Part shown: positions 5,499 to 43,972 of the stretch, one piece after another
Numbering within the stretch: position 1 is the first letter of the stretch
Layout: each line of letters starts with the position of its first letter
Sequence record: NC_070870.1
Length of the DNA: 64,000 nucleotides
Reading direction: 5' to 3' (one strand)
Source: Escherichia phage phi G17
The notes under the pieces: model-generated
Databases searched by the model: none
Seen by the model: the letters and a program-made list of their open reading frames with translations, nothing else
What the model was told of the DNA's origin: nothing
Position numbers and translations under genes: made by a program

Positions 5499-8141
5499 AT
5501 GGGCTTATTCAGTGGGAAGACCAAAGTATACGTAGCATCCTCTGTCTATAACATGGCAGGGGATATACAGAAACGTCCAAACTATATGAAGACTGTAGTC
5601 ATAGGTAAGATTGTTGCTGATACAGGATTCACTATGGCAGACACTATCTCCGATAGTTATCTGAATGGGCCAGGTATTCGTATGCGACTGTTCTCTAGCT
5701 GGAGTAAGAACCACTATGACTCAGTAGTTGGTATGGCAGGTTCTTCATTAGGTGTACTAGCTAAGATTGACCCTACTGTTATAGAGGGACAAATTACCCC
5801 ACCTGCTGGAGAATCTGTATATGTTCAGGCAGCAGAGATTGGCTTTGCTGACTTTGAACAATGGTGTGACCAGTATCTTTATGAGAATGCCCCTAGTCGA
5901 ATCATGGAACGATTCGACGTAGACATTGACGAAGATACCAATGAAATTACTATGACCTCCTTAGATGGAGGTTCTACTATTACATTCACACCTGCTAACT
6001 TTGAACCAGGTGCTTTGTATCTCTATGCTGATTACACATTCTATAAGTCTCCATCTACCAATCCACCGGTAGTAGGGCCGACTACTGTATATGATAATGA
6101 GGATGACTTACCGTCTACTTTATTGTGGACTACCATTTCAAGTGATACGACTGCTAATACAACCAACCTTACTAAGACTATACAGACTCATTCTGTTTAC
6201 TCTGATGGTAGGCCGGATGAAGACAGTACTGTTACTGAACCAAGTGTGGATAACTGGAACTCCTACGTTAAGGTTTATCGTAGAGGATTCACTGAGAAAC
6301 CTGATGATGTAACTGTAGTTGTATCCGACAGGGTAATGACTCATACAAAGTTTGGTGAGATTCAAACCAGTACTGCTGTAACTACCAATGTTGTTGATTT
6401 AGGTGGGGGTGTTACCCGTACTGACACAATCACTACAACTACAGAGACGCTGGTTCGTAAGTACTCATCCCAGACTACCCGTACTGATACTGAGATGACT
6501 GCTGTTGGTACACCTAAGATGCTTATCTATAAGCAGAACTCTGGTAACGTTGCACTTGATTCACTGTTTGAGACTGAAGCTACCGATAACCGATTCTACC
6601 CATTCATTCCAATCAGGAATGATAAACAATGGGTAGAGAATGACCCAATCTACCCATACTGTAAGAAGGCTCTCTTTAAAGCTACCGGTGGTAAAATCAA
6701 TACAGTAATGACAGAGCTTAAGAAGAACGATGACATAGATGATATTCAGTACATCTATGGTTCATTCGGAGTATCTCTTAATACTCCAGAGGATACTGCT
6801 AAGGAATACATCTACCGTTTCTTTCAGATGGCTACTGAAGCATTTCCACCTGACCCAACCTACCCTACATTGGAAGCAGTGATTGCAGGTTATCAGGCAG
6901 CAAATGATGCAGTTGATGAATATGTAGAATGGTGGAACAGACAGGAAGGTCAGATTGTTGGAACACCTCCACCACTCCCGGAATACCCTGTCATACCTAA
7001 ACGAGAGTTTAGGGTACATAGTAATAAGCAGTACAAGTACGACATGACTATTGGCTGGAACTATGTATCTGAAACTACTCATTCAGGTGAAGCATGGTCT
7101 GGTGCTAAGCAGGGACAACTTCGAGCCAGATATGCAGGAGATATAACTCTTACTCGCAAGAACATACGTACAGGTGCTAACAACAAACTGGAAGTTACTA
7201 CTACGTTTTACTCTATGCAGGAGTACGAGTTACTTTGGCAGGATGGTAATGACACTTACCGTAAACTTAGAGTACTGGGTCTAAATCACAATAACAGGGT
7301 ATACAAAAATAAATCAGTAAGTATTGACGTTGCCGAAGCAATGGGTGATGCAGAAGAGAGTGGTTTCATTATTCCACTGCACACTAACATCTACCGTTCA
7401 ATGTCACTGGTTCGTAGTACCCAATTGTCTACTGCTTGCTCTTACTTAGTGATGAACTCATATAAGAAGGTTAAGCAGAAATGGTATACATCATCAGCCT
7501 TTAAGATTGTGGTTGTTGTAGTTGCTGTTGTTGTATCCGTATTCACTATGGGTGCTGGTGGTGCAGGTATTCTTGGGGCATATGGTGCAGTTGGTGCATC
7601 ACTTGGTTTTGTTGGATTAGCTGCTGTAATAGTGGGTGCTGTAGCAAACGCCATTGCTGCAATGATTCTGGTATCCATCATCACTAAAGTATCCACTTCA
7701 CTGTTTGGTGATAAGCTGGGCTTTATTGTTGCAGCTATTGCTTCAATGGTGGCTATGAACGTTGGTACTGCTATGTCTACTGGAACATCCTTATCCACCT
7801 TAGCTGGTGAAATGATGAATGCCCAAAACATCATGCAGCTTACTAGTTCAGTAGGTAATGGTATTAGTCAGTATATTAATGCATCCACGGCTGCTACTAT
7901 TCAGAAAGCAGAGAGTGTAATGCAGCAGTACAATACTGATATGATGGCAATCAATAAGCAGTATGAAGAAATGTTTGGTACTGCTGGTCAAGGTGTAATT
8001 GACCCTATGCAATTCGTGTCAATGGAGTCGATGGATTCTTTCCTCTCACGTACTCTCATGACTGGTTCAGATATAGCTGACATGTCCCTTAACATGGTTG
8101 GAAGCTACTCTGATATGACTCTTAATACTGACCTCGTTTAA
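5499..8141 (+). CDS. Large virion protein (880 aa) with Thr-rich middle and C-terminal Gly/Ala/Val-rich hydrophobic segments; candidate ejected membrane-inserting protein
   Basis: ATG at 5499 two nt after upstream stop; hydrophobic runs such as VVVVVAVVVSVFTMGAGGAGILGAYGAVGASLGFVGLAAVIVGAV. Confidence 0.55.
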   Translation: MGLFSGKTKVYVASSVYNMAGDIQKRPNYMKTVVIGKIVADTGFTMADTISDSYLNGPGIRMRLFSSWSKNHYDSVVGMAGSSLGVLAKIDPTVIEGQITPPAGESVYVQAAEIGFADFEQWCDQYLYENAPSRIMERFDVDIDEDTNEITMTSLDGGSTITFTPANFEPGALYLYADYTFYKSPSTNPPVVGPTTVYDNEDDLPSTLLWTTISSDTTANTTNLTKTIQTHSVYSDGRPDEDSTVTEPSVDNWNSYVKVYRRGFTEKPDDVTVVVSDRVMTHTKFGEIQTSTAVTTNVVDLGGGVTRTDTITTTTETLVRKYSSQTTRTDTEMTAVGTPKMLIYKQNSGNVALDSLFETEATDNRFYPFIPIRNDKQWVENDPIYPYCKKALFKATGGKINTVMTELKKNDDIDDIQYIYGSFGVSLNTPEDTAKEYIYRFFQMATEAFPPDPTYPTLEAVIAGYQAANDAVDEYVEWWNRQEGQIVGTPPPLPEYPVIPKREFRVHSNKQYKYDMTIGWNYVSETTHSGEAWSGAKQGQLRARYAGDITLTRKNIRTGANNKLEVTTTFYSMQEYELLWQDGNDTYRKLRVLGLNHNNRVYKNKSVSIDVAEAMGDAEESGFIIPLHTNIYRSMSLVRSTQLSTACSYLVMNSYKKVKQKWYTSSAFKIVVVVVAVVVSVFTMGAGGAGILGAYGAVGASLGFVGLAAVIVGAVANAIAAMILVSIITKVSTSLFGDKLGFIVAAIASMVAMNVGTAMSTGTSLSTLAGEMMNAQNIMQLTSSVGNGISQYINASTAATIQKAESVMQQYNTDMMAINKQYEEMFGTAGQGVIDPMQFVSMESMDSFLSRTLMTGSDIADMSLNMVGSYSDMTLNTDLV

Positions 8142-22135: not shown

Positions 22136-22211
22136 GGTGCCCACTACTGGATTTGAACCAGTGACTTTCCGATTATTAGTCGGTTGCTTTCCCCGTCTAA
22201 GCTAAGTGGAC
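22136..22211 (-). tRNA. tRNA gene (minus strand), apparent anticodon AAT (Ile-like?), CCA not fully encoded
   Basis: By-eye cloverleaf: acceptor GTCCACT/AGTGGGC (one G-T pair), D-stem GCTT/AAGC, anticodon stem CCGA/TCGG with loop CTAATAA, T-arm ACTGG-TTCAAAT-CCAGT, discriminator A. Confidence 0.6.
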
Positions 22212-29970: not shown

Positions 29971-30275
29971 TATTCCCCCTTGGGAACCATGTTTGCTTGG
30001 AACTCAGGTTCAGACATCAGGCCCAGGTTGTTGATAGACAGATAAACAATATCTTTCAGGTCAACCGAGGTGTCGAAACGCTGGTCCAGACTAATCTTCA
30101 GAGAGTGATTGGCACGGGCCAAATCTTTATAGGTCACATGAGGTTCGGCAGTGAGCAGCATTGTATTCATGGTAAGCAGGGAACCATCATCAGCTTTAGG
30201 AAGCTGGAAGATTACCTGTGCTGCTACCATCCAATGATATTTTTTGACGACGGTTTCTTTAGTACTTTTAGTCAT
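29970..30275 (-). CDS. Hypothetical protein (101 aa)
   Basis: ORF between DNA polymerase fragment and 157-aa ORF. Confidence 0.4.
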   Translation of the reverse strand: MTKSTKETVVKKYHWMVAAQVIFQLPKADDGSLLTMNTMLLTAEPHVTYKDLARANHSLKISLDQRFDTSVDLKDIVYLSINNLGLMSEPEFQANMVPKGE

Positions 30276-31243
30276 GCGAATGCCTTTTGAATTGTTTGAT
30301 TAACTTCTTCAGGGGTAGCGTGATTTGGAATCTCAATCTCGTTAGCCCACGTTGGGTAGAACAAGGACAGTTCCCCACCCAAACCAACTTCTGGATGAGC
30401 AATATCGGGATGGTCTTGCCAGTTAACGGCTTCAACCAAATGCTTGTTCGTGTACTGCAAGGTATCCATGTTGTCACGAATCATGAAGTACTGAGCATCA
30501 TGAATGTGAATACTAGGACGTATATCTAATCTGAACTCACTGGTTCTGACTTTACGCATAAATTCTGAGCCAGCACGGTTATTCAGTAGACACCAGCTTT
30601 GCCCTAAGGCATTGCCAGCAGTTCTACCTTCAGCCTCTGCTTCATATGGAGTCTTACATGTCCCACGTAAAACCTGAGCCAGTAAAGGAGTACGCACTCT
30701 TAAACCAAATGCAGCAGTTACATAACCAGTCTTAGCAGCCTCGTCTAGCTTAGCCTGAACCCAGGCATCACTAACTGTATACATCTCATGGTATCTGGAC
30801 TCGATTAACTTAGCCTTCTCTTCAGAGAAGCCACAGTTTTTCATCAAGCCCATGTAAGTCCCACCGTAGGTCAGTAGGAAAGTGGGTGCTTTTGACTCAC
30901 TACGTAAAGCCTTATACTTTTTCTGTATAGAGTTGATGCCTTCCACAGAGTCATCAATATCCGGCATTTGTTCACCGAAATAAAATTTAGCTCTGAGCGA
31001 ATGCCCGTCGAACCCGTCAGTATAGACGCGCAATTTATTAGGGTCTTTGGTTGTTAGGGCTGATATACGATCCTCTAAGGACGCAAAATCGAGGCCACAG
31101 AACAACCAACCTCCCTCATAGTTAAAGCATTCTGATACTTGTTCCTGCATGCCATATTTACTAGCCAATTGCATTAACTCGTCATAATCATCCAGGGTTA
31201 CTCTATCTTTTATGCTAACTAATTTATTTAATAAGTCCTGCAT
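30272..31243 (-). CDS. Family-A DNA polymerase, C-terminal (palm/fingers) fragment carrying motifs A, B, C
   Basis: LDFASLEDRISA (motif A, compare DYSQIELR), RSESKAPTFLLTYGGTYMGL (motif B, R..K...YG), IHIHDAQYF (motif C HD); track start 31267 is TTG, ATG at 31243. Confidence 0.65.
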   Translation of the reverse strand: MQDLLNKLVSIKDRVTLDDYDELMQLASKYGMQEQVSECFNYEGGWLFCGLDFASLEDRISALTTKDPNKLRVYTDGFDGHSLRAKFYFGEQMPDIDDSVEGINSIQKKYKALRSESKAPTFLLTYGGTYMGLMKNCGFSEEKAKLIESRYHEMYTVSDAWVQAKLDEAAKTGYVTAAFGLRVRTPLLAQVLRGTCKTPYEAEAEGRTAGNALGQSWCLLNNRAGSEFMRKVRTSEFRLDIRPSIHIHDAQYFMIRDNMDTLQYTNKHLVEAVNWQDHPDIAHPEVGLGGELSLFYPTWANEIEIPNHATPEEVNQTIQKAFA

Positions 31244-31880
31244 TACGAAGTACCTTCTCCTGTTCAACCATGTTATTAGCTAATACATAGGTAATAACTG
31301 CATTCATAACAGTATCTAGATCTCTATCTACTAGGATTTCCACTCTCTTACCTAAATGGGTAATTCTACCTACCCATTTATTTTTCGACTTACTGTAACT
31401 AACATAAGGAGTTGTACTCCAAACCCTTTTGTTAGTTTGTTGGGTACTCCTATTTGCCCATCTACAATTGTCTGGAGAGTAGTCTTTGTAGGCGTCAATC
31501 CTGTCAATACTCAGTCCTATTTCATAGCCGGAAGATAATGCCCAATCTCGGAAATTTTCATATGAATTTTTCCACTCATCACAAACATTTATGCCTTTGG
31601 CCCCATATTTGTAATAAGTGGAACATTTTTCATTATGACAGCGGTCTAGCATACCGTAGTAAACCTTGTATAGAGGCTCTTTTGAACGCCCATCCTTGTA
31701 ATTACGAGGGCATTCTTTGTACAAGCAACCACAGCTTCTTGTATGACCACTTTTTAATTTTTGAATATTGACCACAGTGGTATTACCACAGTCACACAGA
31801 CATACCCAATGCTTTGCATAGTATTTGTCTTTGTGGCTGAATCTCACTACGGTCAATCTATTAAATTTCTTTCCAATCAT
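31224..31880 (-). CDS. HNH homing endonuclease inserted between the two DNA polymerase fragments
   Basis: Cys-rich N-terminal region (WVCLCDCGN...SGHTRSCGC) and LSIDRIDAYKDYSPDNCRWA HNH-type motif; ATG at 31880 overlaps stop of upstream polymerase fragment (ATGA). Confidence 0.65.
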   Translation of the reverse strand: MIGKKFNRLTVVRFSHKDKYYAKHWVCLCDCGNTTVVNIQKLKSGHTRSCGCLYKECPRNYKDGRSKEPLYKVYYGMLDRCHNEKCSTYYKYGAKGINVCDEWKNSYENFRDWALSSGYEIGLSIDRIDAYKDYSPDNCRWANRSTQQTNKRVWSTTPYVSYSKSKNKWVGRITHLGKRVEILVDRDLDTVMNAVITYVLANNMVEQEKVLRNAGLIK

Positions 31881-33694
31881 TTGGCACCACCAATTGTATT
31901 TTTCAGGGACTGGATTAATGTATCCAGCTTGTCCCTGTTTGGCAAGTAACAACTGGGTGGGGCTTCGAAGCATTTCTTAATCTTCTTGGCGTATTTAGAA
32001 CCGGATGGAATTGTTTGTAGATTGGGCTCTGAAGCCGATAGCCTACCGGAGACTGTGCCTCCCAGATTGAGGTTGCCGAACAGATAGTGCCAGCCATCCG
32101 GCCCCGGTTGGGCATTCCTGAAAGCTGGTATAAAACTAGTGATAATCTTATCCACGAGTTTATAGTCGATAAGTGCATTGAGCAGTTCCTTAACATCTTC
32201 ACTCTGCGTATGTGTACGCAGTGCTTTAATAGTGTCACCGTCAGTAGCAGGTTGCTTGCTCTTAGTAAGACCAAGAACCGGTAAGCCAATGTAATCAAAT
32301 AACAGTTTCTGTAACTGTGGACCGGAGTTAGGATTAAACTCTATGTCACAATCAGCCAGTGTTACTTGCTTCTTCTTGAGCTTAGCATTCTTATCGTCTA
32401 CCCATTCCTGACGAAGCGTCAGGGTGAAGTTCTTCATGAGCTTAGACTCACGAATAGTTTTCAGAGCCTGGTTCCTGTCAGTTTCCATCTCTTCAGCTAC
32501 TTGGTTAACGGTTTCCATATTCATGGGCATACCGGTTAACTGCATCTGAATAATGTCTTCACAGGCTGGTTTAAAGATGTTGTTGTAAACATCCAGTTGG
32601 TCATCAGCAATGAGAGTATCCCAGTGCTTCTCGTAGGTGTACCACGTACACAAACCATCAATGAGGTTGTAACGTAACAGTTGCTCATTAGGAATAAGAC
32701 AAATGTCTTTAATATCATCCTGAGCATAGTTACCGGCATACTCCTGAGCCTGGTCTTTCAGACTAAGGTGATTACCAGCACAACTGTTAGTAGCCAAGTA
32801 GGTGATTAACTTAGTACAGTCCCAATTACGCAGCATGATTTCCATGCCATGTAGTAAGCCTTCTGTATCAATCAGGTTATCCATGAATAGCTGATAGATA
32901 AGTATGTACACGTCATAGCTAATGTTGTGATACATCTGCCGTTGAGTGTACTTAATGAAGAACTCACGTAACAGGTTACGAACAATATCGTTCCTGTTAA
33001 TGCGCCCATAGGGTGCTTCAGTAGCCCCCTTAATCGGCTCGTAGTCCACATTAAAGGCTATGCCTTGTGTCTTACTCCAACAGAACGTAATCGTTCCTAT
33101 ACCTGCGTTATAGTGCTTTAAACCGAAGGATTCGATGTCTATAGCCAGAGGCTTATTCATCTCAAGCAACTGGTCTAACCAGGCTTTAATCTTTTCGGGT
33201 GTGTCTGGATAGGCTTCAAACTCAATGATTCCCTGCCCAGGTTCAGCATACTGTCCTCGAATGTGGTTAAGTAATGCATCCATACCCTGAGCAATCTTGG
33301 CTCTCACTACAGGTGGGTCATAAAAGACCTGTCTGTAGTTAGGTGTATAGATAACCTTCTGCTTACCCCATACTGAGTCACAAACATAGCCGAGGTTAGC
33401 CTCTGCTTTAGCTTCTTTAGTCAGTATTTTGAAGTAGTCAGAATCGGTACAGATAATGTACTGAGTCTCTGCGTCATCCAGTACTTGTTGCAGTTCCTGC
33501 TGTATGAACTCTTTAATCTCCCTTGCAGGAGTCTTCTTCTTGCCTGGGGCAGAATGAAGTTCAAGGAAGATGAAATCTTCCATGCTTAGGTCATAAGGCA
33601 GCAGGTAGGTTTTAATCATCTCCTCCCTTCGGATTTGATGACCGAGGATAGCAATAGGATACTTACCCGTATCCTGAGAGGTGATGTAACGCAT
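31877..33694 (-). CDS. Family-A DNA polymerase, N-terminal fragment (3'-5' exonuclease-like plus thumb region, 605 aa)
   Basis: LAIDIESFGL (Exo I DxE-like), Y...D motifs; adjacent to the fragment carrying motifs A-C. Confidence 0.6.
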   Translation of the reverse strand: MRYITSQDTGKYPIAILGHQIRREEMIKTYLLPYDLSMEDFIFLELHSAPGKKKTPAREIKEFIQQELQQVLDDAETQYIICTDSDYFKILTKEAKAEANLGYVCDSVWGKQKVIYTPNYRQVFYDPPVVRAKIAQGMDALLNHIRGQYAEPGQGIIEFEAYPDTPEKIKAWLDQLLEMNKPLAIDIESFGLKHYNAGIGTITFCWSKTQGIAFNVDYEPIKGATEAPYGRINRNDIVRNLLREFFIKYTQRQMYHNISYDVYILIYQLFMDNLIDTEGLLHGMEIMLRNWDCTKLITYLATNSCAGNHLSLKDQAQEYAGNYAQDDIKDICLIPNEQLLRYNLIDGLCTWYTYEKHWDTLIADDQLDVYNNIFKPACEDIIQMQLTGMPMNMETVNQVAEEMETDRNQALKTIRESKLMKNFTLTLRQEWVDDKNAKLKKKQVTLADCDIEFNPNSGPQLQKLLFDYIGLPVLGLTKSKQPATDGDTIKALRTHTQSEDVKELLNALIDYKLVDKIITSFIPAFRNAQPGPDGWHYLFGNLNLGGTVSGRLSASEPNLQTIPSGSKYAKKIKKCFEAPPSCYLPNRDKLDTLIQSLKNTIGGAK

Positions 33695-35590: not shown

Positions 35591-36050
35591 AGATGTAAGG
35601 TTTTAAATCTGGGGGAGTGTAATCTTTCCCCTTCATGACTTTCTTATTCTCGTTGAAGATAGGTTCCCCATCTTCGAACTTAGAATAGTTTGAGCGATTG
35701 ACTTCAGCCAATGCTCCCGGGACATTCATCCCAAGGAAAGTACCGACGCCTGTTGCTGTAACAATCTGATCAGCAAGGCTATCAAGGATAGCTAAACGAT
35801 GGCTGTTCGGTGCATATACCTCTTTGTCATCTTTTTTCATTAAATCAGACAGTTTAGTTAATGCTGTAATAGCATTATGAAGAGTATTGTAAGCATCTTC
35901 TGAGTTAGAAACTAACTCGTCGAGCATCTCAACTACTTCTTCCAGATGGCAACCAATCTGGGTACTAATATTCTTACTCGTCGGATTCGATACGGCTTTT
36001 AGAAACCATTGCCGTGTGTTTTCCAGCGTACAAACGGATGAACTTGTCAT
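35589..36050 (-). CDS. Hypothetical protein (153 aa; true start may be the internal ATG at 35927)
   Basis: ORF; overlaps upstream gene. Confidence 0.4.
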   Translation of the reverse strand: MTSSSVCTLENTRQWFLKAVSNPTSKNISTQIGCHLEEVVEMLDELVSNSEDAYNTLHNAITALTKLSDLMKKDDKEVYAPNSHRLAILDSLADQIVTATGVGTFLGMNVPGALAEVNRSNYSKFEDGEPIFNENKKVMKGKDYTPPDLKPYI

Positions 36051-36369
36051 GCTCGCTCTCTTGGTTAAGGTGGCGATTATTATATGCCTCCAGAATCAAG
36101 TCCCTTACATATGAGCGAATCTCATAAGCAGGACCAACTTGCTCTGATAGCCAATCTGCCACATGGGTTGGTAATGGTCGGAGTACATTCTCCATGAACG
36201 TCCGACGTGTGTCGGCTGGTTCAATGTTTAAAGAACGCAACCGTAAGGTCACGGTCGTTGGGTGAACACCCAATGTTTTAGCAATGGTTGCCAGAGACAA
36301 TCCAACAGCATTCATTCGAATGATGTCTTCATCAGTAGCCTTACGGTTTACACGATATACATTACTCAT
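35974..36369 (-). CDS. Putative HTH DNA-binding/regulatory protein (131 aa from ATG at 36369)
   Basis: GAGGAAA upstream of ATG; helix-turn-helix-like LSLATIAKTLGVHPTTV. Confidence 0.45.
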   Translation of the reverse strand: MSNVYRVNRKATDEDIIRMNAVGLSLATIAKTLGVHPTTVTLRLRSLNIEPADTRRTFMENVLRPLPTHVADWLSEQVGPAYEIRSYVRDLILEAYNNRHLNQESEHDKFIRLYAGKHTAMVSKSRIESDE

Positions 36370-36431
36370 AGTACATTTCCTCTTCAAATTTACCCTCACT
36401 TTATTACAAGTGAGGGCATTTGAACAGGCTA

Positions 36432-38477
36432 TTACTTAGCAGCTTTGGTCAGCTTGGTAGCTAACTTAGCTTCTTCTTCAGTCAGACCCATTGCAGTGAA
36501 TGACTTCTTAGCAGCACGCTTGTAGTCTTGCAGAGCATGGCCTTTCTGATAGTCGGAGTACGACGTATCGTTCAGGATGCTACGCAGGTTATCAGCGTGT
36601 TTACCAGACGGTGCTACCTTGGTGGCAGTAGCCGAGCGAGAAACCTTAGCTTTCTTCGCTGGTTCAGTCTTTGGTGCAGGTGTACGGGTACTACGAATAG
36701 CAGCAATAGCATCCACAACATCATTGTTAACACCGAAAGCAGCCCAAGGCTTACGAGCTTTACTTCGCAGTTCCACCAGTAGGTCGGCAACAGGCAACGC
36801 ATCTTCCAGTGTAGTTGCAGCTTTGAACTCTTCAACGAGTTCCCGGATTTGTTCTTTCACAGTAGGAGCCTTCTTAATAACAGGTTTAAGGTCAGTAGCC
36901 TTCACTGGTTCGGAAGCTACAGCTTCATTCAGTGACTCTTCCATATTCAGTGCTTCTTTGTTAGCAACAGTACGGAATTGTTCTACGGAACCAGATGAGA
37001 GATTGGTGTATTTGAGGTTAGTTCCACGATGCCCACCAACCATAACAAGTGTGGTAGGTGAACTATGGTTCCCAACGATGACATCATTGAGTAACTTCTT
37101 GCCTACTTCTGTATTAGACAGATAGATACCATTGTTAACGTTATTACGTTCCTCTTCCGGCAGTTCAGCAATAATGTGATACGCAGCTACACGCATCTTA
37201 TTGGTGTTGTATTCAGGAACAGCAAATACATCTTCTGGTGCTACTTTACCGAGGATAGTTACATCACCGCTGAAGGTGCGGATATAGCTCATGGATGCTA
37301 CATGCAGACCATTGGAGCAGTCCTGACGGCGGTCGGGGTCTACCAGGTCTTCGCGTACCTGTACTTTACAGCCTACCCACTGACGGATGTTGCCTGAGTG
37401 ACAGTCAACATATACACGTTTACCATCTTCCGTACCTTTAGACCGAAGGCGTTTCAGGAACAGGATAGAGCCATCATCAGCAATAGGTAGTTCAGCTGTT
37501 TCCATGAACTTCATCAGGTCTTCCACTGAATGCAGACGGTCTTTAATAACCGGAGCCAGACGCTCAAGGAACCTGGTAAAGCCCTTGTAGTCCTTCAGCT
37601 TGGCAGATTGACGCAAGTGACGTTGCAGGTTCTCAACTCCAGGGATAACCCCATCGTTGGTAACAGCAACAACCACTTCATCTTCCTTCACATCAGTGTG
37701 GAAGTTGGCGTCATCGGTACTAATAGCCCCCAATGCAGTTAGCTTCTCAGAAGCAGCAGCCAGTTTATCCTGGTTCGTAACTTTATCCTCTTCTACGTAA
37801 GGTAGAGGGGTTTCCTCACGATTGGTAAATACAATTTGTACGCCTTTGATGTTCCGGGCTTGTTTAGCAAACTCACCCATTTCATCATCAGATACCCCAC
37901 GAATTGCAATAGGCCATTCCTGTGCAAGAATGTTGTTGGTGTGGTAATAACCCCAACCCAGCACATCGTTAATAAAACGAACCAGTGCAGTATGGTTATG
38001 GTCTTTATCCCAGCCGGTAACCCACATCAGATTGTCGCGTTTGTCACGCCAACCCTCTGATACAGTTACTACTGGTTCATTAGCCTGTACAGCCAGGAAG
38101 GTATCCATAGCGTTAGACACTAATGTCTTAGTGGGACTGCCAAGCTTAATATCTGAAACGATACGGGTAGGAGGAGTACCCGTGCCATCTTCGAAGAACT
38201 CTTTAAGTTTAGCTTTAGCTACTTTAAAGAAGCGGACGAACCCATTAGTGCTCTTCTCTGCTTCCAGATATTCAGTACGCAGATCTACTTCTGGTGCAAT
38301 GTTTACTTCTATCAGGTCTTGGGTAGTTCCCAGACCTTTGATTTGTGCTTCAGATACAATACGAGCAACCCGTGGGTCGCTCTGAGGATATACAACTGTG
38401 GAGCCGTCAGGCTTCCACAATGTGAGGTTACGACTGTCAACTGCCAGTGCGATGATAGAAATCAGCTCGATTTTCAT
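36432..38477 (-). CDS. rIIB: rIIB-like protein (681 aa)
   Basis: Large protein immediately downstream of GHKL-ATPase (rIIA-like) gene; K/A-rich C-terminus; assignment by gene order. Confidence 0.4.
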   Translation of the reverse strand: MKIELISIIALAVDSRNLTLWKPDGSTVVYPQSDPRVARIVSEAQIKGLGTTQDLIEVNIAPEVDLRTEYLEAEKSTNGFVRFFKVAKAKLKEFFEDGTGTPPTRIVSDIKLGSPTKTLVSNAMDTFLAVQANEPVVTVSEGWRDKRDNLMWVTGWDKDHNHTALVRFINDVLGWGYYHTNNILAQEWPIAIRGVSDDEMGEFAKQARNIKGVQIVFTNREETPLPYVEEDKVTNQDKLAAASEKLTALGAISTDDANFHTDVKEDEVVVAVTNDGVIPGVENLQRHLRQSAKLKDYKGFTRFLERLAPVIKDRLHSVEDLMKFMETAELPIADDGSILFLKRLRSKGTEDGKRVYVDCHSGNIRQWVGCKVQVREDLVDPDRRQDCSNGLHVASMSYIRTFSGDVTILGKVAPEDVFAVPEYNTNKMRVAAYHIIAELPEEERNNVNNGIYLSNTEVGKKLLNDVIVGNHSSPTTLVMVGGHRGTNLKYTNLSSGSVEQFRTVANKEALNMEESLNEAVASEPVKATDLKPVIKKAPTVKEQIRELVEEFKAATTLEDALPVADLLVELRSKARKPWAAFGVNNDVVDAIAAIRSTRTPAPKTEPAKKAKVSRSATATKVAPSGKHADNLRSILNDTSYSDYQKGHALQDYKRAAKKSFTAMGLTEEEAKLATKLTKAAK

Positions 38478-38481
38478 CAGA

Positions 38482-41046
38482 TTAGTTACCTTTCAGTTTA
38501 TTTAGACGATTACGGTAGAGGGACTTAAACCCAGGAATATCCTCTGGGTGTTTCTTGAGATACCTGACTAAGCTAGTCAAGTCCAGGTTTTGCAGGATGT
38601 CATCCTGTTTCCAGCTATAACAAAATAAATTTTTGTACTTGCTGAGTATTTCGTAATGTTTATGATTATGTGGGTTAGTCATTGTCATGTATGGCACTAA
38701 GTCTTCCTCTGACTTAATGTACCCCATTTCAATGAGCTTCCTCTCTTTACTCCGATGATTTCTTAGGAAATCATACGCCCATTCATACTCTGGATTAAAA
38801 ATCAGATTTTGTAGTGGTTTGAATGTTAGACCAAGAATATCGAGGATTTCCCAATACTCTCTGTCATCCAATCCTGTGTGCTCAGTAATACCAATACGCT
38901 GTTCAGTGACATACTTCTTGAATCCCTTACTGGTAATAACCGACATCAGTTCACTAAAGCGAACATCGTCAATGTGAATAGCACCACGTCGTTTAGCCTT
39001 GTTAACTTCGATTTGATTGCGACAGACAACAGTCTCTGCTTTCATCTCATCGGACAACTCATACCATTTCCACATGGTTCCAATTTGGGCATTATCTGGT
39101 CTACCAGAACCAACCTGATTGGCTAGTACGTAGTACTTAGGCATCTCCACTTCAACGAATCGAGGTTCTGCATGGTATCTTGGGTCAGCAAATTCACTCT
39201 GAATGTAAGGTTTAGTTTCCCAATCACCATTACTATTTCGTACAGGAGTAGTACCAAGTACAGCATTCAATGAAACCAGGGCATTAGTTTTACCACCTGC
39301 TTTGGTTTTATTTTCAGCTATAGTTTTAGCCCGTTTAGCAGCAGCTATTTTAGCCTGTTCCTTACGGAAGTTAGTTGGCTTGTCCCACTCATTATATTGA
39401 GTAAGGTCAATTACCCGATAACCCATAGCAGTGAACTTAGCTACAGCTTTTTCTGCTTCGCCTTTCTTAGGACTAACCACATGAACAAAAGCTGTACGCT
39501 CCAAGTCACCTCGATTGTATTCAGGGAAGTACGAGAAAGAATCTGCACAGTCAGATAAACGTCTGGTAACTACAACGTTTTTGGTAGTGAATATGCCAAT
39601 ACCTTTATGGCAGTCGTAATCCGTCTTAAAGTAGGTAACAAGATTGCTCTTCTCTAAGCTAACACAGTTACCTTGGTTCATGATGTAGCCAGACCACTTA
39701 ACACCAGATGCTTTTAATTTAGCAAGCTGAGGTAAATGCAAATGACGATACACCAATTCCTGGAAAGGATAGTATGTACCCTCTTCACGCGTTTCCTTAA
39801 GAGCACTCATGGCTTTACCATACAGTTTCTTAAGACCTGCATATTCAGGACGAGCCAGTAATGTTTTATTGGATAGGTTACGCCAATGCTTAATATAATG
39901 CTTACGCTGCTTAGCCCACAAGCTAGAGGACATATAGTGTTGAACAGTTCTGTCTGTAACAGCACGCAGGAAAGATGGATATTCCCAGTAACGAGTAGAA
40001 GATTCGGAGGCATATTCTTCAACCTGCTTAATAGCTTCAGGAATCTTAGCCTTAATCTCTTTCTCCATACGGTCTACTAAATCTACACATAGAGTAGTAA
40101 TACCATCGTCGGTTAACTTCTGGTTAGACAAAGTTTCTCGACTAGGAGCAATAGCTAAGGTATCTGGTGCAGCCTGAACTACTAAAGTGCCAGCACCAAT
40201 GATATTCATGAAGTTGAGGATAAGACCTACAGCCTCTTCACTAGCTGGGCTGGATACTACTGGGTACATTACATTACCGTAGCGAACAAAGATGTTACTG
40301 TTGCCCATATAGTTCTGATACCAGCTATCAGACAAATCATATGAACCAGGTTCGAATGACATACCTAATGTACCCAGAAGAGTGTAGTCACCCTGTGTAA
40401 TACTATTACCTGTTTCAACCCGATTGAGTTTAGGAGTACTAAGTTCAGCCTTAATCTCACCGTTAAATACGATGGATTTAATGTACTGAATAAAGGTATC
40501 TAAATCTCGCTTACCTAACTGGAATTTAACTTCCAGACCGGATTCCTTAGTTGGAATACCAGTAACAATAGGAATAATACCCGGTTTGCCGTCATTCTCA
40601 ATTGCAGCCTTAGCTACGTTATATACCGACATCTTTCCTTGGTTCCATGAAGTAACCTGGAAGCTATCTGTATAAGCGAATGGGGACTTACATCCCAGAC
40701 CAAATCCACCAGTAACACTACTGTTGGACTTCTTGGTAGATGCACCATAGACACCATAAATGGAACCAATGAGTTCATCTGGGATACCGTTACCAAAGTC
40801 ACGGAAGGTAATAAAGTGGTCTGTATCAATGGTAATACGGATAGGAATATCAGTCTTACCTGCTTCAATATGAGCATCCCAACTGTTACAGATAGTCTCA
40901 CGGACTACTGCCAGGGTAGGATTGTTATATAGGGAAGTACTTAATACGTGAAAGAATGCCGGGTCATCAGAGATGCCAAAGGCGATTGCTTCTTTACCAC
41001 CCAGTGTCGCTGAAGTGGCTGATTGATTGGTATCTGCAACTAACAT
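38482..41046 (-). CDS. rIIA: rIIA-like protein with N-terminal GHKL (histidine-kinase-like) ATPase domain (854 aa)
   Basis: N-terminal motifs RETICNSWDA (N-box-like), DFGNGIPDE (DxGxG), GGFGLGCKS (G2 box). Confidence 0.55.
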   Translation of the reverse strand: MLVADTNQSATSATLGGKEAIAFGISDDPAFFHVLSTSLYNNPTLAVVRETICNSWDAHIEAGKTDIPIRITIDTDHFITFRDFGNGIPDELIGSIYGVYGASTKKSNSSVTGGFGLGCKSPFAYTDSFQVTSWNQGKMSVYNVAKAAIENDGKPGIIPIVTGIPTKESGLEVKFQLGKRDLDTFIQYIKSIVFNGEIKAELSTPKLNRVETGNSITQGDYTLLGTLGMSFEPGSYDLSDSWYQNYMGNSNIFVRYGNVMYPVVSSPASEEAVGLILNFMNIIGAGTLVVQAAPDTLAIAPSRETLSNQKLTDDGITTLCVDLVDRMEKEIKAKIPEAIKQVEEYASESSTRYWEYPSFLRAVTDRTVQHYMSSSLWAKQRKHYIKHWRNLSNKTLLARPEYAGLKKLYGKAMSALKETREEGTYYPFQELVYRHLHLPQLAKLKASGVKWSGYIMNQGNCVSLEKSNLVTYFKTDYDCHKGIGIFTTKNVVVTRRLSDCADSFSYFPEYNRGDLERTAFVHVVSPKKGEAEKAVAKFTAMGYRVIDLTQYNEWDKPTNFRKEQAKIAAAKRAKTIAENKTKAGGKTNALVSLNAVLGTTPVRNSNGDWETKPYIQSEFADPRYHAEPRFVEVEMPKYYVLANQVGSGRPDNAQIGTMWKWYELSDEMKAETVVCRNQIEVNKAKRRGAIHIDDVRFSELMSVITSKGFKKYVTEQRIGITEHTGLDDREYWEILDILGLTFKPLQNLIFNPEYEWAYDFLRNHRSKERKLIEMGYIKSEEDLVPYMTMTNPHNHKHYEILSKYKNLFCYSWKQDDILQNLDLTSLVRYLKKHPEDIPGFKSLYRNRLNKLKGN

Positions 41047-41179
41047 TTATTTACTCTCCAGTTTAAATGTTGCTTATAGGAAAAGACTTAATACAACTAC
41101 GGAAATACCTATGGCTGTACCGTATGTACCTAATAATTCATTAAGTAAGTAGGGTAGAGCCATGAAATAGTTGAATACT

Positions 41180-41512
41180 TCAGCCATTGCGTTTACTTGC
41201 CATTGCTTGAAGGACGAATACAGCTATATCACTTGCAGTGTCATCAGTAAGTTCCTCCACTGAATAGTGACTTTCACCATCAAGTTCACCATTTTGCCAT
41301 TCATCCAGCATACGCTGCACTTCAGCTAATCCAGCCTGAATCATTTCCTTGCTTGGTTCCAGCCATAATTTACGTTCCTCTGCCAGTGCAGCAATGCACA
41401 TACACAGTGAAGCGATGTTAGCCGGACAAGCAGCAATATCACCAGTGAGAGCTATCTCACTTAAAGGTTTAGATTCCCCAGTTTGGGCCAGTATAACTTC
41501 AGGATTAATCAC
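41180..41512 (-). CDS. Hypothetical protein (110 aa)
   Basis: ORF. Confidence 0.4.
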   Translation of the reverse strand: MINPEVILAQTGESKPLSEIALTGDIAACPANIASLCMCIAALAEERKLWLEPSKEMIQAGLAEVQRMLDEWQNGELDGESHYSVEELTDDTASDIAVFVLQAMASKRNG

Positions 41513-43194: not shown

Positions 43195-43637
43195 TAGAAT
43201 GACCTTAGATAGTTGGTAATACCACTACGGTTTTCTGTAATCCTCTTGGCCTGAACATATACCAGCTTAAACTCACTACGGGGTAGTTCCTGTAATACTG
43301 CTATACCTTCAGTAAGAGCCACAGAACACGCTACAGCGGTTTCTTCTTTAAAGGAGTACAAGTCTTCATACATGAGGGCTTCATACTCTTTACGGAGCAT
43401 ACAGAGAGCATCTCTTGCCTTATCACTTACTTCTTGTGAACCAGCAGACATAGCTAAGCTGTATATGATAAAGACTTGTTCGAAAACAAAGTCCAGTAAT
43501 CTATCAGGGGTGTTAGTACCCATGAATAATTTTGTTGTGTAGGAACGAGCTTTACGGTTGAGTACATACTCATCCTCTATGCCTTTCTTATAAAGAACAG
43601 GGTTTCGTTCCCTTTTTCGTAGGAATGGAATACGCAT
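43194..43637 (-). CDS. Hypothetical protein (147 aa)
   Basis: ORF; stop overlaps thyX-like start. Confidence 0.45.
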   Translation of the reverse strand: MRIPFLRKRERNPVLYKKGIEDEYVLNRKARSYTTKLFMGTNTPDRLLDFVFEQVFIIYSLAMSAGSQEVSDKARDALCMLRKEYEALMYEDLYSFKEETAVACSVALTEGIAVLQELPRSEFKLVYVQAKRITENRSGITNYLRSF

Positions 43638-43654
43638 TAGTAAGTCTTTCCTAG

Positions 43655-43685
43655 TAAATAAAAAAGCCCACGGGTTAGGTGGGCT
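43655..43685 (-). terminator. Intrinsic terminator (minus strand) AGCCCAC-ctaaccc-GTGGGCT + TTTTTATTT
   Basis: 7-bp stem and T-run. Confidence 0.55.
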
Positions 43686-43765
43686 TGGGTTAGGAGATGG
43701 ATAAGCAATGAGCTGGAAGTAACTTCCACAAATAGCCCTACTAGAGGGCTATTCAGGTAAGTTAC

Positions 43766-43972
43766 TTATTCAGCTTCTGCTTCAGGCTTAGCTCCAGACA
43801 GTGCTTTAGCTACATTACGACGAACAGAGTCGTAACCTACTTCAGTTCGTAGAAGAGAGCCGTCAACAAAAGCAATATCTGCTTTTCCGTCATCGCTGCA
43901 TTGTACTGTTACTACGTTTGCTGCAACTACTGTAAACTTACGACCATTTGCTTTGGTAGTGAATACTGACAT
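43766..43972 (-). CDS. Hypothetical small protein (68 aa)
   Basis: ORF. Confidence 0.4.
   Translation of the reverse strand: MSVFTTKANGRKFTVVAANVVTVQCSDDGKADIAFVDGSLLRTEVGYDSVRRNVAKALSGAKPEAEAE

What the first reader, a model, noticed from the sequence alone, without database searches (positions are those of the whole stretch)
36432..41046. rIIA/rIIB-like pair with a GHKL ATPase domain
The 854-aa protein has clear GHKL ATPase boxes at its N-terminus and is followed by a 681-aa partner, matching the rIIA/rIIB arrangement of T4-like and N4-like phages. The rII proteins are implicated in exclusion by prophage-encoded systems, so this is a candidate anti-exclusion locus.
Basis: partly seen in the sequence, partly recalled or inferred. 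Interest (0 to 1): 0.4.

Follow-up and report, generated by a model that had tools for sequence, protein, structure and literature searches.

The report
Known phage rIIA/rIIB anti-exclusion gene pair
These two adjacent genes are the already-annotated rIIA and rIIB genes of an N4-like coliphage (phage phi G17); related phages use this pair to escape a prophage's suicide defence, so the finding is correct but ordinary.

Summary
Two minus-strand ORFs, 38482..41046 (854 aa) and 36432..38477 (681 aa), lie 4 nt apart. The first has an intact GHKL ATP-binding domain.

Both proteins match RIIA and RIIB phage families over their full length (E 7e-289 and 5e-209). They align directly with T4 rIIA (2e-25) and T4 rIIB (3e-19). 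They are full-length orthologues of N4 gp33 and gp34 (40% and 47% identity). Both are exact matches to RefSeq proteins already named RIIA and RIIB of Escherichia phage phi G17.

Knockdown of the N4 orthologues has been published to make N4 sensitive to lambda RexAB. The "candidate anti-exclusion locus" reading therefore rests on experiment in a relative, not in this phage.

Details added here:
- The GHKL domain is closest to Hsp90/HtpG and Topo VI-B.
- A natural rIIA-rIIB fusion in phage RB43 supports the two proteins acting together.
- The conserved rIIB core has no match among solved structures.
- N4-type rIIB carries a ClpS/L12-like insert and two tandem basic helical repeats.
- The one hypervariable patch in the core (aa 345-351) aligns with the T2 RIIB residue that decides recognition by the Tmn defence.

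Novelty: already known. Interest: low.

The parts
38482..41046 (-). rIIA gene (854 aa), identical to YP_010659631.1 'RIIA lysis inhibitor' of Escherichia phage phi G17
   Evidence: ORF. phrog_2979 7.4e-289. Exact-sequence look-up. 84% identical to G7C gp33, 40% to N4 gp33, and 36% to T4 rIIA over the N-terminus.
40492..40998 (-). GHKL (Bergerat-fold) ATP-binding domain of rIIA, aa ~17-185. N box aa 49-59 (40870..40902), G1 box aa 82-88 (40783..40803), G2 box aa 113-122 (40681..40710).
   Evidence: Pfam HATPase_c_3 36.8 bits, above the gathering score. Motifs invariant from T4 to N4-like phages. Profile hits to Topo VI-B and HtpG structures.
40126..40158 (-). Second conserved rIIA motif L-x-(I/V)-A-P-S-R-E-x-L-S (aa 297-307). 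With Y256-G257-x3-Y261-P262, this is the only block beyond the GHKL domain that is shared with T4 rIIA.
   Evidence: Alignments. phrog_612 (T4-type RIIA) covers aa 10-391. Its role is unknown. A gamma-phosphate-contacting 'transducer' role is inference only.
38485..39900 (-). Variable C-terminal part of rIIA (aa ~380-854)
   Evidence: Identity to N4 falls from 0.54-0.66 (aa 1-350, apart from one 50-aa block at 0.44) to 0.22-0.38 (aa 350-850). Identity to G7C falls to 0.60-0.75 in the last 150 aa. Moonfish has a 33-aa insertion at aa 523. No Pfam domain.
36432..38477 (-). rIIB gene (681 aa), identical to 'RIIB lysis inhibitor' of Escherichia phage phi G17
   Evidence: ORF. phrog_2886 5.2e-209. 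100% identity hit P0001. 88.5% identical to G7C gp34, 47% to N4 gp34, and 29% to T4 rIIB over the core.
37140..37625 (-). Conserved rIIB core (aa ~285-446), the part shared with T4 rIIB and with the RB43 rIIA-rIIB fusion. Invariant residues: R306 F324 G336 K342 D358 Q366 G369 C387 S388 G390 L391 H392 Y398 P414 P421 K427 R429 Y433.
   Evidence: BLASTP to T4. 149-sequence alignment A1. Conservation including T4. Confident AF2 model with no solved-structure match.
37425..37445 (-). Hypervariable patch in the rIIB core (aa 345-351, RSKGTED). The model places it at the end of strand 338-350 and the turn into strand 353-358, just before the invariant D358-C-H360. It aligns with T4 S219 / T2 D219.
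   Evidence: Entropy 0.5-2.1 bits at these seven positions (six of them above 1.0) against a core mean of 0.17, among 120 close relatives. Alignment to T4 R218-S219-N220. Residue 219 decides Tmn activation (PMC13001434).
37824..38033 (-). Lineage-specific beta-alpha-alpha-beta-alpha-beta insert in rIIB (aa ~149-218) with a ClpS / ribosomal bL12 C-terminal-domain-like fold
36435..36869 (-). Basic C-terminal tail of rIIB (pI 9.5 for aa 447-681) with two tandem ~57-aa three-helix repeats (aa 537-597 and 624-681; consensus KKxaKKSWxxLG), joined by a hypervariable linker (aa 598-623). Absent from T4 rIIB.
   Evidence: hhalign of the two sub-alignments gives probability 99.2% and E 1.4e-19. pI. Linker entropy 1.19 bits. 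Model pLDDT >90 in both repeats.
36380..36427 (-). Stable RNA hairpin in the 62-nt spacer after the rIIB stop codon (core stem-loop 36392..36417). It is a likely end or stabiliser of the rII transcript.
   Evidence: MFE -24.6 kcal/mol, z -7.7, and 0 of 200 shuffles fold as well. The same position is annotated as stem_loop in the G7C record. There is no T-run, so it is not a canonical intrinsic terminator.

Best explanation
This is the rIIA-rIIB operon of a G7C-like (Gamaleyavirus) N4-like podophage, Escherichia phage phi G17.

Shown: two tightly spaced, co-oriented genes sit inside the middle (replication and nucleotide-metabolism) gene block. They encode (i) rIIA, whose N-terminus is an intact GHKL/Bergerat ATP-binding domain of the Hsp90/Topo VI-B type, followed by a short conserved block (YGxxxYP, IAPSRExLS) and a fast-evolving C-terminal half; and (ii) rIIB, built around a ~160-aa conserved core shared with T4 rIIB.

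Inferred from orthology: the two proteins act together, probably as a complex. They are dispensable on naive hosts. They are needed to keep RexAB-type abortive-infection systems of resident prophages from aborting the infection by membrane depolarisation.

Inferred mechanism, not shown anywhere: rIIA works as an ATP-driven clamp or switch, like other GHKL proteins. rIIB is its partner or effector and neutralises the Rex trigger or its consequence. The variable C-terminal half of rIIA and the lineage-specific rIIB modules provide target or localisation specificity.

rIIB is also a liability. In T-even phages it is the molecule that other defences (Tmn, CARD-gasdermin) detect. This fits the single hypervariable surface patch in the otherwise conserved core.
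For: Identity:
- Full-length PHROG RIIA and RIIB matches.
- Pairwise similarity to T4 rIIA and rIIB.
- Full-length orthology to N4 gp33/gp34 and G7C gp33/gp34.
- Exact matches to RefSeq RIIA and RIIB of phage phi G17.

Intact ATPase motifs.

Operon:
- 4-nt spacer with an internal RBS.
- Strong hairpin only after rIIB.
- Synteny with the N4 replication block.

Acting together:
- RB43 encodes one 1049-aa polypeptide. Its aa 23-354 align to this rIIA (1e-25) and its aa 895-1042 align to this rIIB core (1e-15).
- phrog_609 shows the same architecture.

Anti-Rex role:
- Knockdown of N4 RIIA or RIIB reduces plating efficiency only on RexAB-expressing E. coli (PMC11879866).
- T4 rII insertions are depleted only with RexAB present (bioRxiv 10.1101/2025.11.20.689424).

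Arms-race signature:
- The rII pair is much more diverged than its neighbours. Against G7C: polymerase 99%, helicase 98.6%, rIIA 84%, rIIB 88.5%. Against N4: polymerase 68%, helicase 69%, rIIA 38.5%, rIIB 47%.
- Hypervariable patch at aa 345-351, aligned to the Tmn-specificity residue 219 of T2 RIIB.
- T6 RIIB triggers CARD-gasdermin systems (PMC10312443).
Against: - No experiment exists for this phage or for any Gamaleyavirus. The tested N4 proteins are only 40% and 47% identical.
- The biochemical mechanism of rII is unknown even in T4. ATP hydrolysis, complex formation and the molecular target are all unproven.
- No transmembrane helix is predicted in either protein, so the membrane association reported for T4 rII cannot be read from the sequence.
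- Neither protein matches PADLOC models.
- The rIIB core matches no solved structure, so its activity cannot be inferred from its fold.
- High divergence could reflect relaxed constraint on accessory genes and not an arms race.
Confidence: 0.8

Rival explanations
1. The pair is primarily a replication or membrane-organisation module: a GHKL ATPase plus a partner that tethers or remodels the replisome or DNA at the membrane. Rex sensitivity of mutants would then be a side effect, not the evolved function.
For: - The genes sit in the replication and nucleotide-metabolism block, between thymidylate synthase/dCTP deaminase and helicase/DNA polymerase.
- In T4 and RB43 the rII genes adjoin the topoisomerase II genes.
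- The nearest solved GHKL domains include Topo VI-B.
- T4 rIIB has an N-terminal HTH, and N4-type rIIB has a basic helical repeat tail.
- The Tmn preprint describes RIIB as a membrane anchor of the replisome (PMC13001434).
- Iyer et al. list rIIB among transcription factors (PMC7824862).
Against: - Knockdown of rIIA or rIIB in five phages, including N4, does not reduce infection of Rex-free E. coli (PMC11879866).
- T4 rII is non-essential without RexAB.
- The pair evolves far faster than the true replication genes beside it.
Confidence: 0.15
2. The 854-aa protein is the B subunit of a type IIB topoisomerase (Topo VI-B-like). One related record annotates it this way.
For: 'TOP6B: DNA topoisomerase 6 subunit B' is annotated over the homologous gene in phage vB_EcoP_CU10EC. 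NCBIfam top6b hit E 6e-7. Topo VI-B is the top PDB hit for the rIIA profile.
Against: - The match is only 28 bits against an equivalog cut-off of 380.7, and it covers only the ATP-binding boxes (aa 45-126).
- HtpG/Hsp90 match equally well and over a longer stretch.
- No Pfam domain was found beyond the GHKL domain, and none of the neighbouring genes scanned matched a Topo VI-A/Spo11 or Toprim family.
- The full-length match is to RIIA families.
Confidence: 0.02
3. The pair is literally a 'lysis inhibitor', as the database name says. It would delay holin-mediated lysis and so set the timing of lysis.
For: The product name 'RIIA/RIIB lysis inhibitor' is used in RefSeq and PHROGs. From general knowledge of T4 genetics, the historical T4 r (rapid lysis) plaque phenotype supports the name.
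Against: - The name derives from the plaque phenotype, not from a shown mechanism.
- The genes lie in the middle/replication block, not beside lysis genes.
- Neither protein has a transmembrane or signal segment.
- Recent functional work assigns the conditional phenotype to RexAB.
Confidence: 0.03

Closest known systems
gp33 (rIIA-like) and gp34 (rIIB-like) of Escherichia phage vB_EcoP_G7C, and the identical, already deposited RIIA/RIIB of Escherichia phage phi G17
   Same: Same lengths (854 and 681 aa), same 4-nt spacing, same neighbours, and the same downstream stem-loop. Identity to G7C is 84% and 88.5%. Both proteins are exact-sequence matches to phi G17.
   Different: Nothing relative to phi G17. 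Relative to G7C, substitutions cluster in four places: the C-terminal third of rIIA; the region around the ClpS/L12-like insert (aa 101-234); the aa 345-351 patch of rIIB; and the linker between the rIIB repeats.
Phage N4 gp33/gp34 (rIIA/rIIB), the experimentally tested N4-type pair
   Same: Collinear full-length homologues (40% and 47% identity). Same gene order and same position between gp32 and gp35-gp39. The N4 pair is required on RexAB-expressing hosts (PMC11879866).
   Different: - Different genus (Enquatrovirus against Gamaleyavirus).
- The C-terminal half of rIIA is only 22-38% identical.
- N4 has no small membrane ORF directly upstream of rIIA.
- In N4 the rIIA stop overlaps the rIIB start by one base (rIIA ends and rIIB starts at locus position 5986), whereas here there is a 4-nt spacer.
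T4 rIIA/rIIB, the founding members (Benzer's rII locus)
   Same: - rIIA: GHKL domain plus the YGxxxYP and IAPSRExLS block.
- rIIB: conserved core with D-C-H, C-S-x-G-L-H, K-x-R and Y residues.
- Adjacent genes in rIIA-then-rIIB order.
   Different: - T4 rIIB is 312 aa, with an N-terminal HTH (sub-threshold Pfam HTH hits, aa 7-50) and nothing after the core.
- The protein here is 681 aa. It has a different N-terminal domain, a ClpS/L12-like insert and two C-terminal basic helical repeats, and no HTH hit.
- The C-terminal halves of the rIIA proteins are not alignable.
RB43 rIIA-rIIB fusion protein (YP_238977.1, 1049 aa; phrog_609)
   Same: It contains both the rIIA GHKL region (aligned to aa 22-384 here) and the rIIB core (aligned to aa 285-439 here), in the same N-to-C order as the gene order here.
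   Different: It is one polypeptide instead of two. It lacks the N4-type rIIB extensions.

Membership tests
rIIA (T4 rIIA / N4 gp33 family) | N-terminal GHKL (Bergerat) ATP-binding domain with N, G1 and G2 boxes | tested here: met
   Pfam HATPase_c_3 above its gathering score. Boxes invariant across T4, N4, G7C, Moonfish and this protein. Profile hits to Topo VI-B and HtpG structures.
rIIA (T4 rIIA / N4 gp33 family) | Specific sequence homology to T4 rIIA beyond generic GHKL similarity | tested here: met
   BLASTP E 2e-25, 36% identity. phrog_612 E 1.7e-64 over aa 10-391, and phrog_2979 E 7.4e-289 over the full length. Shared YGxxxYP and IAPSRExLS motifs.
rIIA (T4 rIIA / N4 gp33 family) | Encoded immediately upstream of rIIB on the same strand | tested here: met
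   4-nt spacer. Same order in T4, N4 and G7C.
rIIA (T4 rIIA / N4 gp33 family) | ATP binding and hydrolysis | not testable with these tools
   Only motif integrity can be shown. No biochemical data were found in the papers read.
rIIB (T4 rIIB / N4 gp34 family) | Conserved rIIB core with invariant D-C-H, C-S-x-G-L-H, Y, P, K-x-R and Y residues | tested here: met
   BLASTP to T4 rIIB E 3e-19. phrog_2886 E 5.2e-209. Invariant columns in 149 homologues that are shared with T4. All 27 Foldseek hits in BFVD at E <= 1e-3 that carry a functional name are rIIB-type proteins, apart from one labelled transposase; about 12 are unnamed or uncharacterised.
rIIB (T4 rIIB / N4 gp34 family) | N-terminal helix-turn-helix as in T4 rIIB | tested here: not met
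   T4 rIIB gives several sub-threshold HTH hits at aa 7-50. This protein and N4 gp34 give none. This is a feature of the T4 lineage and not of the family core, so it does not exclude membership. It does mark this protein as the N4-type architectural variant.
rII system (functional definition) | Conditionally required for growth on hosts carrying lambda RexAB and dispensable otherwise | not testable with these tools
   Shown for N4, T4 and three other phages (PMC11879866). Inferred here by orthology at 40-47% identity.
rII system (functional definition) | Membrane association of the proteins | tested here: inconclusive
   No convincing transmembrane helix. The best 19-residue hydropathy window is 1.94 in rIIA (aa 272-290), is not conserved in N4, and is most likely a buried element. 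rIIB reaches at most 1.2. Peripheral association cannot be assessed.
Topoisomerase VI subunit B | Full-length match to the equivalog model (GHKL + H2TH + transducer) and a Spo11/Toprim partner | tested here: not met
   28.2 bits against a cut-off of 380.7, covering aa 45-126 only. No partner among the neighbouring genes scanned.

The most novel reading that the evidence does not exclude
The single hypervariable patch in the rIIB core (aa 345-351) is positionally equivalent to T2 RIIB residue 219, which decides activation of the Tmn defence. It may be an immune-evasion hotspot. If so, enterobacterial hosts of G7C-like phages carry defences that sense N4-type rIIB, and the phages diversify this surface to escape while keeping the anti-Rex function. 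Related to this, the N4-type additions (ClpS/bL12-like insert, tandem basic helical repeats) could give rIIB interaction partners that T4 rIIB lacks.
Probability: 0.3. Interest if true: 0.35.

Novelty: already known. Interest (0 to 1): 0.12.

Why it matters
It matters little as a discovery. The genes are deposited and named, the N4-type rII pair is described in genome papers on N4-like phages (search results), and its anti-RexAB role was shown experimentally for N4 in 2025.

Its residual value is as a data point for an old open question, namely what rIIA and rIIB actually do. The locus shows three things:
- An intact Hsp90/Topo VI-B-like ATPase.
- A partner whose conserved core has no counterpart among solved structures.
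- A localised hypervariable patch at the site known to govern sensing of RIIB by a host defence in T2.

For phage-therapy use of G7C-like phages, the pair predicts resistance to Rex-type exclusion. It also predicts possible vulnerability to rIIB-sensing systems.

Tried and rejected
1. Single-sequence AlphaFold of rIIB gave an unusable model (pLDDT 42). It was replaced by a model built on a 149-sequence alignment (pLDDT 88).
2. I looked for a solved-structure relative of the rIIB core:
   - phmmer and profile searches against PDB found nothing.
   - The AFDB library was unavailable.
3. I tested whether the N4-like gene just downstream of rIIB (gp35 homologue, weak HTH hits) corresponds to the N-terminal HTH of T4 rIIB, that is, a split domain. 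BLASTP found no alignment, so the idea was dropped.
4. Topo VI-B identity for rIIA was rejected, because the match is sub-threshold and covers the motifs only.
5. PADLOC found no similarity of either protein to known defence-system components.
6. A pairwise test of the rIIB C-terminal repeat within the single sequence was not significant (47 of 500 shuffles). The repeat became clear only with a profile-profile comparison.
7. Sigma-70 promoter-like sites are fewer than expected by chance across the locus (6 against 14.6). This is uninformative, because N4-like middle genes use the phage's own RNA polymerase (general knowledge of phage N4).
8. I searched for a group I intron around the HNH insertion in the polymerase gene. 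Rfam gave no hit.

Full report
**Observation**

The window holds two long ATG-initiated ORFs on the minus strand, exactly at the reported coordinates: 38482..41046 (854 aa) and 36432..38477 (681 aa). The first ends ...AAA GGT AAC TAA. The second starts four bases later, so its ribosome-binding site (AAAGG) lies inside the end of the first gene. The upstream gene has its own GGAGA site. A very stable hairpin follows the second gene in the 62-nt spacer before the next gene: -24.6 kcal/mol, z = -7.7, and none of 200 shuffles folds as well. The same hairpin is annotated as a stem-loop in the G7C record. The two genes therefore look like one tightly coupled expression unit.

**GHKL domain**

- Pfam HATPase_c_3 is matched above its gathering threshold (36.8 bits against 25, aa 47-154).
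- The N box (R49-E50...N54..D57-A-H), G1 box (R82-D83-x-G85-x-G87) and G2 box (G113-G-F-G-L-G118-x-K-S-P) are invariant in this protein, G7C gp33, Moonfish, N4 gp33 and T4 rIIA.
- A profile of these five sequences finds solved GHKL structures. The best are Topo VI-B (5e-7) and HtpG/Hsp90 (1.5e-6). The HtpG match spans aa 20-193 and includes the Hsp90-like 'SLYxN...RExIxNxxDA' stretch.
- The Topo VI-B label carried by one related GenBank record is not justified. The NCBIfam equivalog scores 28 bits against a cut-off of 380.7, over the ATP-binding boxes only.

**Identity of the pair**

- PHROG profiles give full-length matches: RIIA phrog_2979 at 7.4e-289, and RIIB phrog_2886 at 5.2e-209.
- Pairwise BLASTP to the founding T4 proteins is significant. 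rIIA: 36% identity over aa 17-185, E 2e-25. rIIB: 29% over aa 237-442, aligned to T4 117-310, E 3e-19.
- Against N4 gp33/gp34 the alignments are collinear over the whole length (40% and 47% identity). Against G7C gp33/gp34 identity is 84% and 88.5%.
- The region is 86-90% identical in DNA to 54 Gamaleyavirus-type phages, where the genes are mostly annotated rIIA/rIIB.
- The window carries a 3456-aa virion RNA polymerase ORF typical of N4-like phages.
- Both proteins are exact matches to NCBI proteins named 'RIIA lysis inhibitor' (YP_010659631.1) and 'RIIB lysis inhibitor' of Escherichia phage phi G17. The locus is therefore already known and annotated.

**Context**

Gene order around the pair is syntenic with G7C and N4: dCTP deaminase, thymidylate synthase, small ORFs, rIIA, rIIB, gp35, a nucleotide pyrophosphohydrolase, helicase, gp38, DNA polymerase. 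All are on one strand. T4 has the same rIIA-then-rIIB order, next to its topoisomerase genes.

**Function, from the literature**

[quoted passage not shown] It did reduce plating efficiency on cells expressing lambda RexAB (PMC11879866).
- Transposon insertions in T4 rIIA and rIIB are depleted only with RexAB present (10.1101/2025.11.20.689424).
- The BASEL paper had already noted the rIIAB locus of N4-type phages (PMC8594841).
- RIIB is itself sensed by other defences. T6 RIIB triggers CARD-gasdermin systems (PMC10312443). T2 RIIB binds and activates the Tmn NTPase, with residue 219 deciding activation (PMC13001434).

It has been tested in the N4 orthologues but not in this phage.

**What I could add**

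1. The two proteins very likely work as one unit. Phage RB43 encodes a single 1049-aa rIIA-rIIB protein. Its aa 23-354 align to this rIIA (1e-25) and its aa 895-1042 align to this rIIB core (1e-15). phrog_609 has the same architecture.

2. rIIA shares with T4 not only the GHKL domain but also a second block (Y256-G-x3-Y-P, and L297-x-I-A-P-S-R-E-x-L-S307). After about aa 380 it becomes variable, at 22-38% identity to N4.

3. rIIB is a large family. It has 5971 clusters at 50% identity with E <= 1e-3, and its core is found in 2762 of 50,697 phage records.
   - In 149 diverse N4-like homologues, 19 positions are invariant.
   - Most of the invariant core positions, together with the near-invariant H360, are also conserved in T4: D358, H360, C387-S-x-G-L-H392, Y398, P414, P421, K427, R429 and Y433.

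4. An alignment-based AlphaFold model of rIIB is confident (pLDDT 88, pTM 0.69).
   - The conserved core finds no solved structure by sequence or by fold (no Foldseek hit at E <= 1e-3).
   - I assign that match, by its beta-alpha-alpha-beta-alpha-beta order, to a lineage-specific insert at aa 149-218, present in only 10-20% of homologues.

5. The basic C-terminal tail (pI 9.5) consists of two tandem helical repeats of about 57 aa (hhalign probability 99.2%, E 1.4e-19). T4 rIIB instead has an N-terminal HTH and no tail.

6. The rII pair evolves much faster than the replication genes beside it.
   - Against G7C: polymerase 99%, helicase 98.6%, rIIA 84%, rIIB 88.5%.
   - Against N4: polymerase 68%, helicase 69%, rIIA 38.5%, rIIB 47%.

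7. Among 120 close relatives, variability inside the rIIB core is concentrated at aa 345-351. Entropy there is 0.5-2.1 bits, with six of the seven positions above 1.0, against a core mean of 0.17. This patch aligns with T4 R218-S219-N220, the site of the T2/T4 D219S difference that governs Tmn activation. That the patch is an immune-evasion hotspot is my inference. It needs a dN/dS test and experiments.

**Mechanism**

- Shown: gene structure, motif integrity, orthology, and the natural fusion.
- Inferred from orthologues: a conditional requirement on RexAB-type hosts.
- Speculative: rIIA acts as an ATP-driven GHKL switch, with rIIB as partner or effector, and the variable regions provide specificity.
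- No transmembrane segment is predicted in either protein.
- No defence-system similarity was found in PADLOC.

**Rivals**

- A primary role in replication or membrane organisation is suggested by the gene neighbourhood and by the DNA-binding-like modules. It is disfavoured by the dispensability of rII on Rex-free hosts.
- A true topoisomerase subunit is rejected.
- A literal lysis inhibitor rests on the historical name only.

**Verdict**

The feature is already known: it is an exact match to annotated RefSeq proteins, and the family function has been tested in N4. Interest is low.

Noticed in passing
window 30272..33694 (minus strand); inserted ORF at 31224..31973: The family-A DNA polymerase gene is split in this window. 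In G7C it is one 859-aa CDS. Here it is two ORFs: 31877..33694, whose first 581 aa are 99% identical to the G7C N-terminal part, and 30272..31267, whose aa 35-331 are 88.6% identical to the C-terminal part. A 249-aa HNH homing-endonuclease ORF lies between them (phrog_374 6.7e-63; no Pfam hit). Only 5 of 50 related phage records carry the insertion (PGN829.1 and U1G, each as GenBank and RefSeq copies, and ST4), and there it is annotated as HNH endonuclease flanked by two 'DNA polymerase I' CDSs. Rfam finds no group I intron. The insertion therefore looks like a sporadic, mobile, free-standing endonuclease that splits the polymerase.
   Followed up: partly
window 41074..41187 (minus strand): A 37-aa ORF (MAEVFNYFMALPYLLNELLGTYGTAIGISVVVLSLFL) with a hydrophobic C-terminal segment ends 27 nt upstream of rIIA. 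Its start overlaps the stop of the preceding gene (ATGGCTGA). It corresponds in position and length to G7C gp32.1 (114 nt). N4 has no such ORF there, and Moonfish has a 63-aa ORF instead. It may be a small membrane protein co-expressed with rII. ORF boundaries were read from the sequence by hand.
   Followed up: partly
window 35974..36399 (minus strand); the likely true start is the ATG at 36369: The gene directly downstream of rIIB (gp35 homologue, phrog_6377, function unknown) gives weak helix-turn-helix hits (HTH_38 at 2.9e-4, HTH_23 at 6.2e-4) and a faint hit to the terminase small subunit family. It shows no BLASTP similarity to the N-terminal HTH of T4 rIIB.
   Followed up: partly
window 43637..43766: G7C carries an 'Imm immunity to superinfection' gene (gp27.1) between the gp27 and gp29 homologues. 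The window has only about 130 nt there, so this accessory gene appears to be absent.
   Followed up: no
window 22138..22211 (minus strand): A single tRNA gene (Rfam RF00005, 61.6 bits) lies near the switch between the plus-strand and minus-strand gene blocks. The anticodon was not determined.
   Followed up: no
rIIB homologues P0001-P0120: All listed close homologues of rIIB carry a precomputed Pfam accession, PF26926.1. That family is not in the local Pfam copy: hmmscan of the same protein returned no family. A recent Pfam release therefore probably already has an rIIB family. Its name could not be checked here.
   Followed up: no
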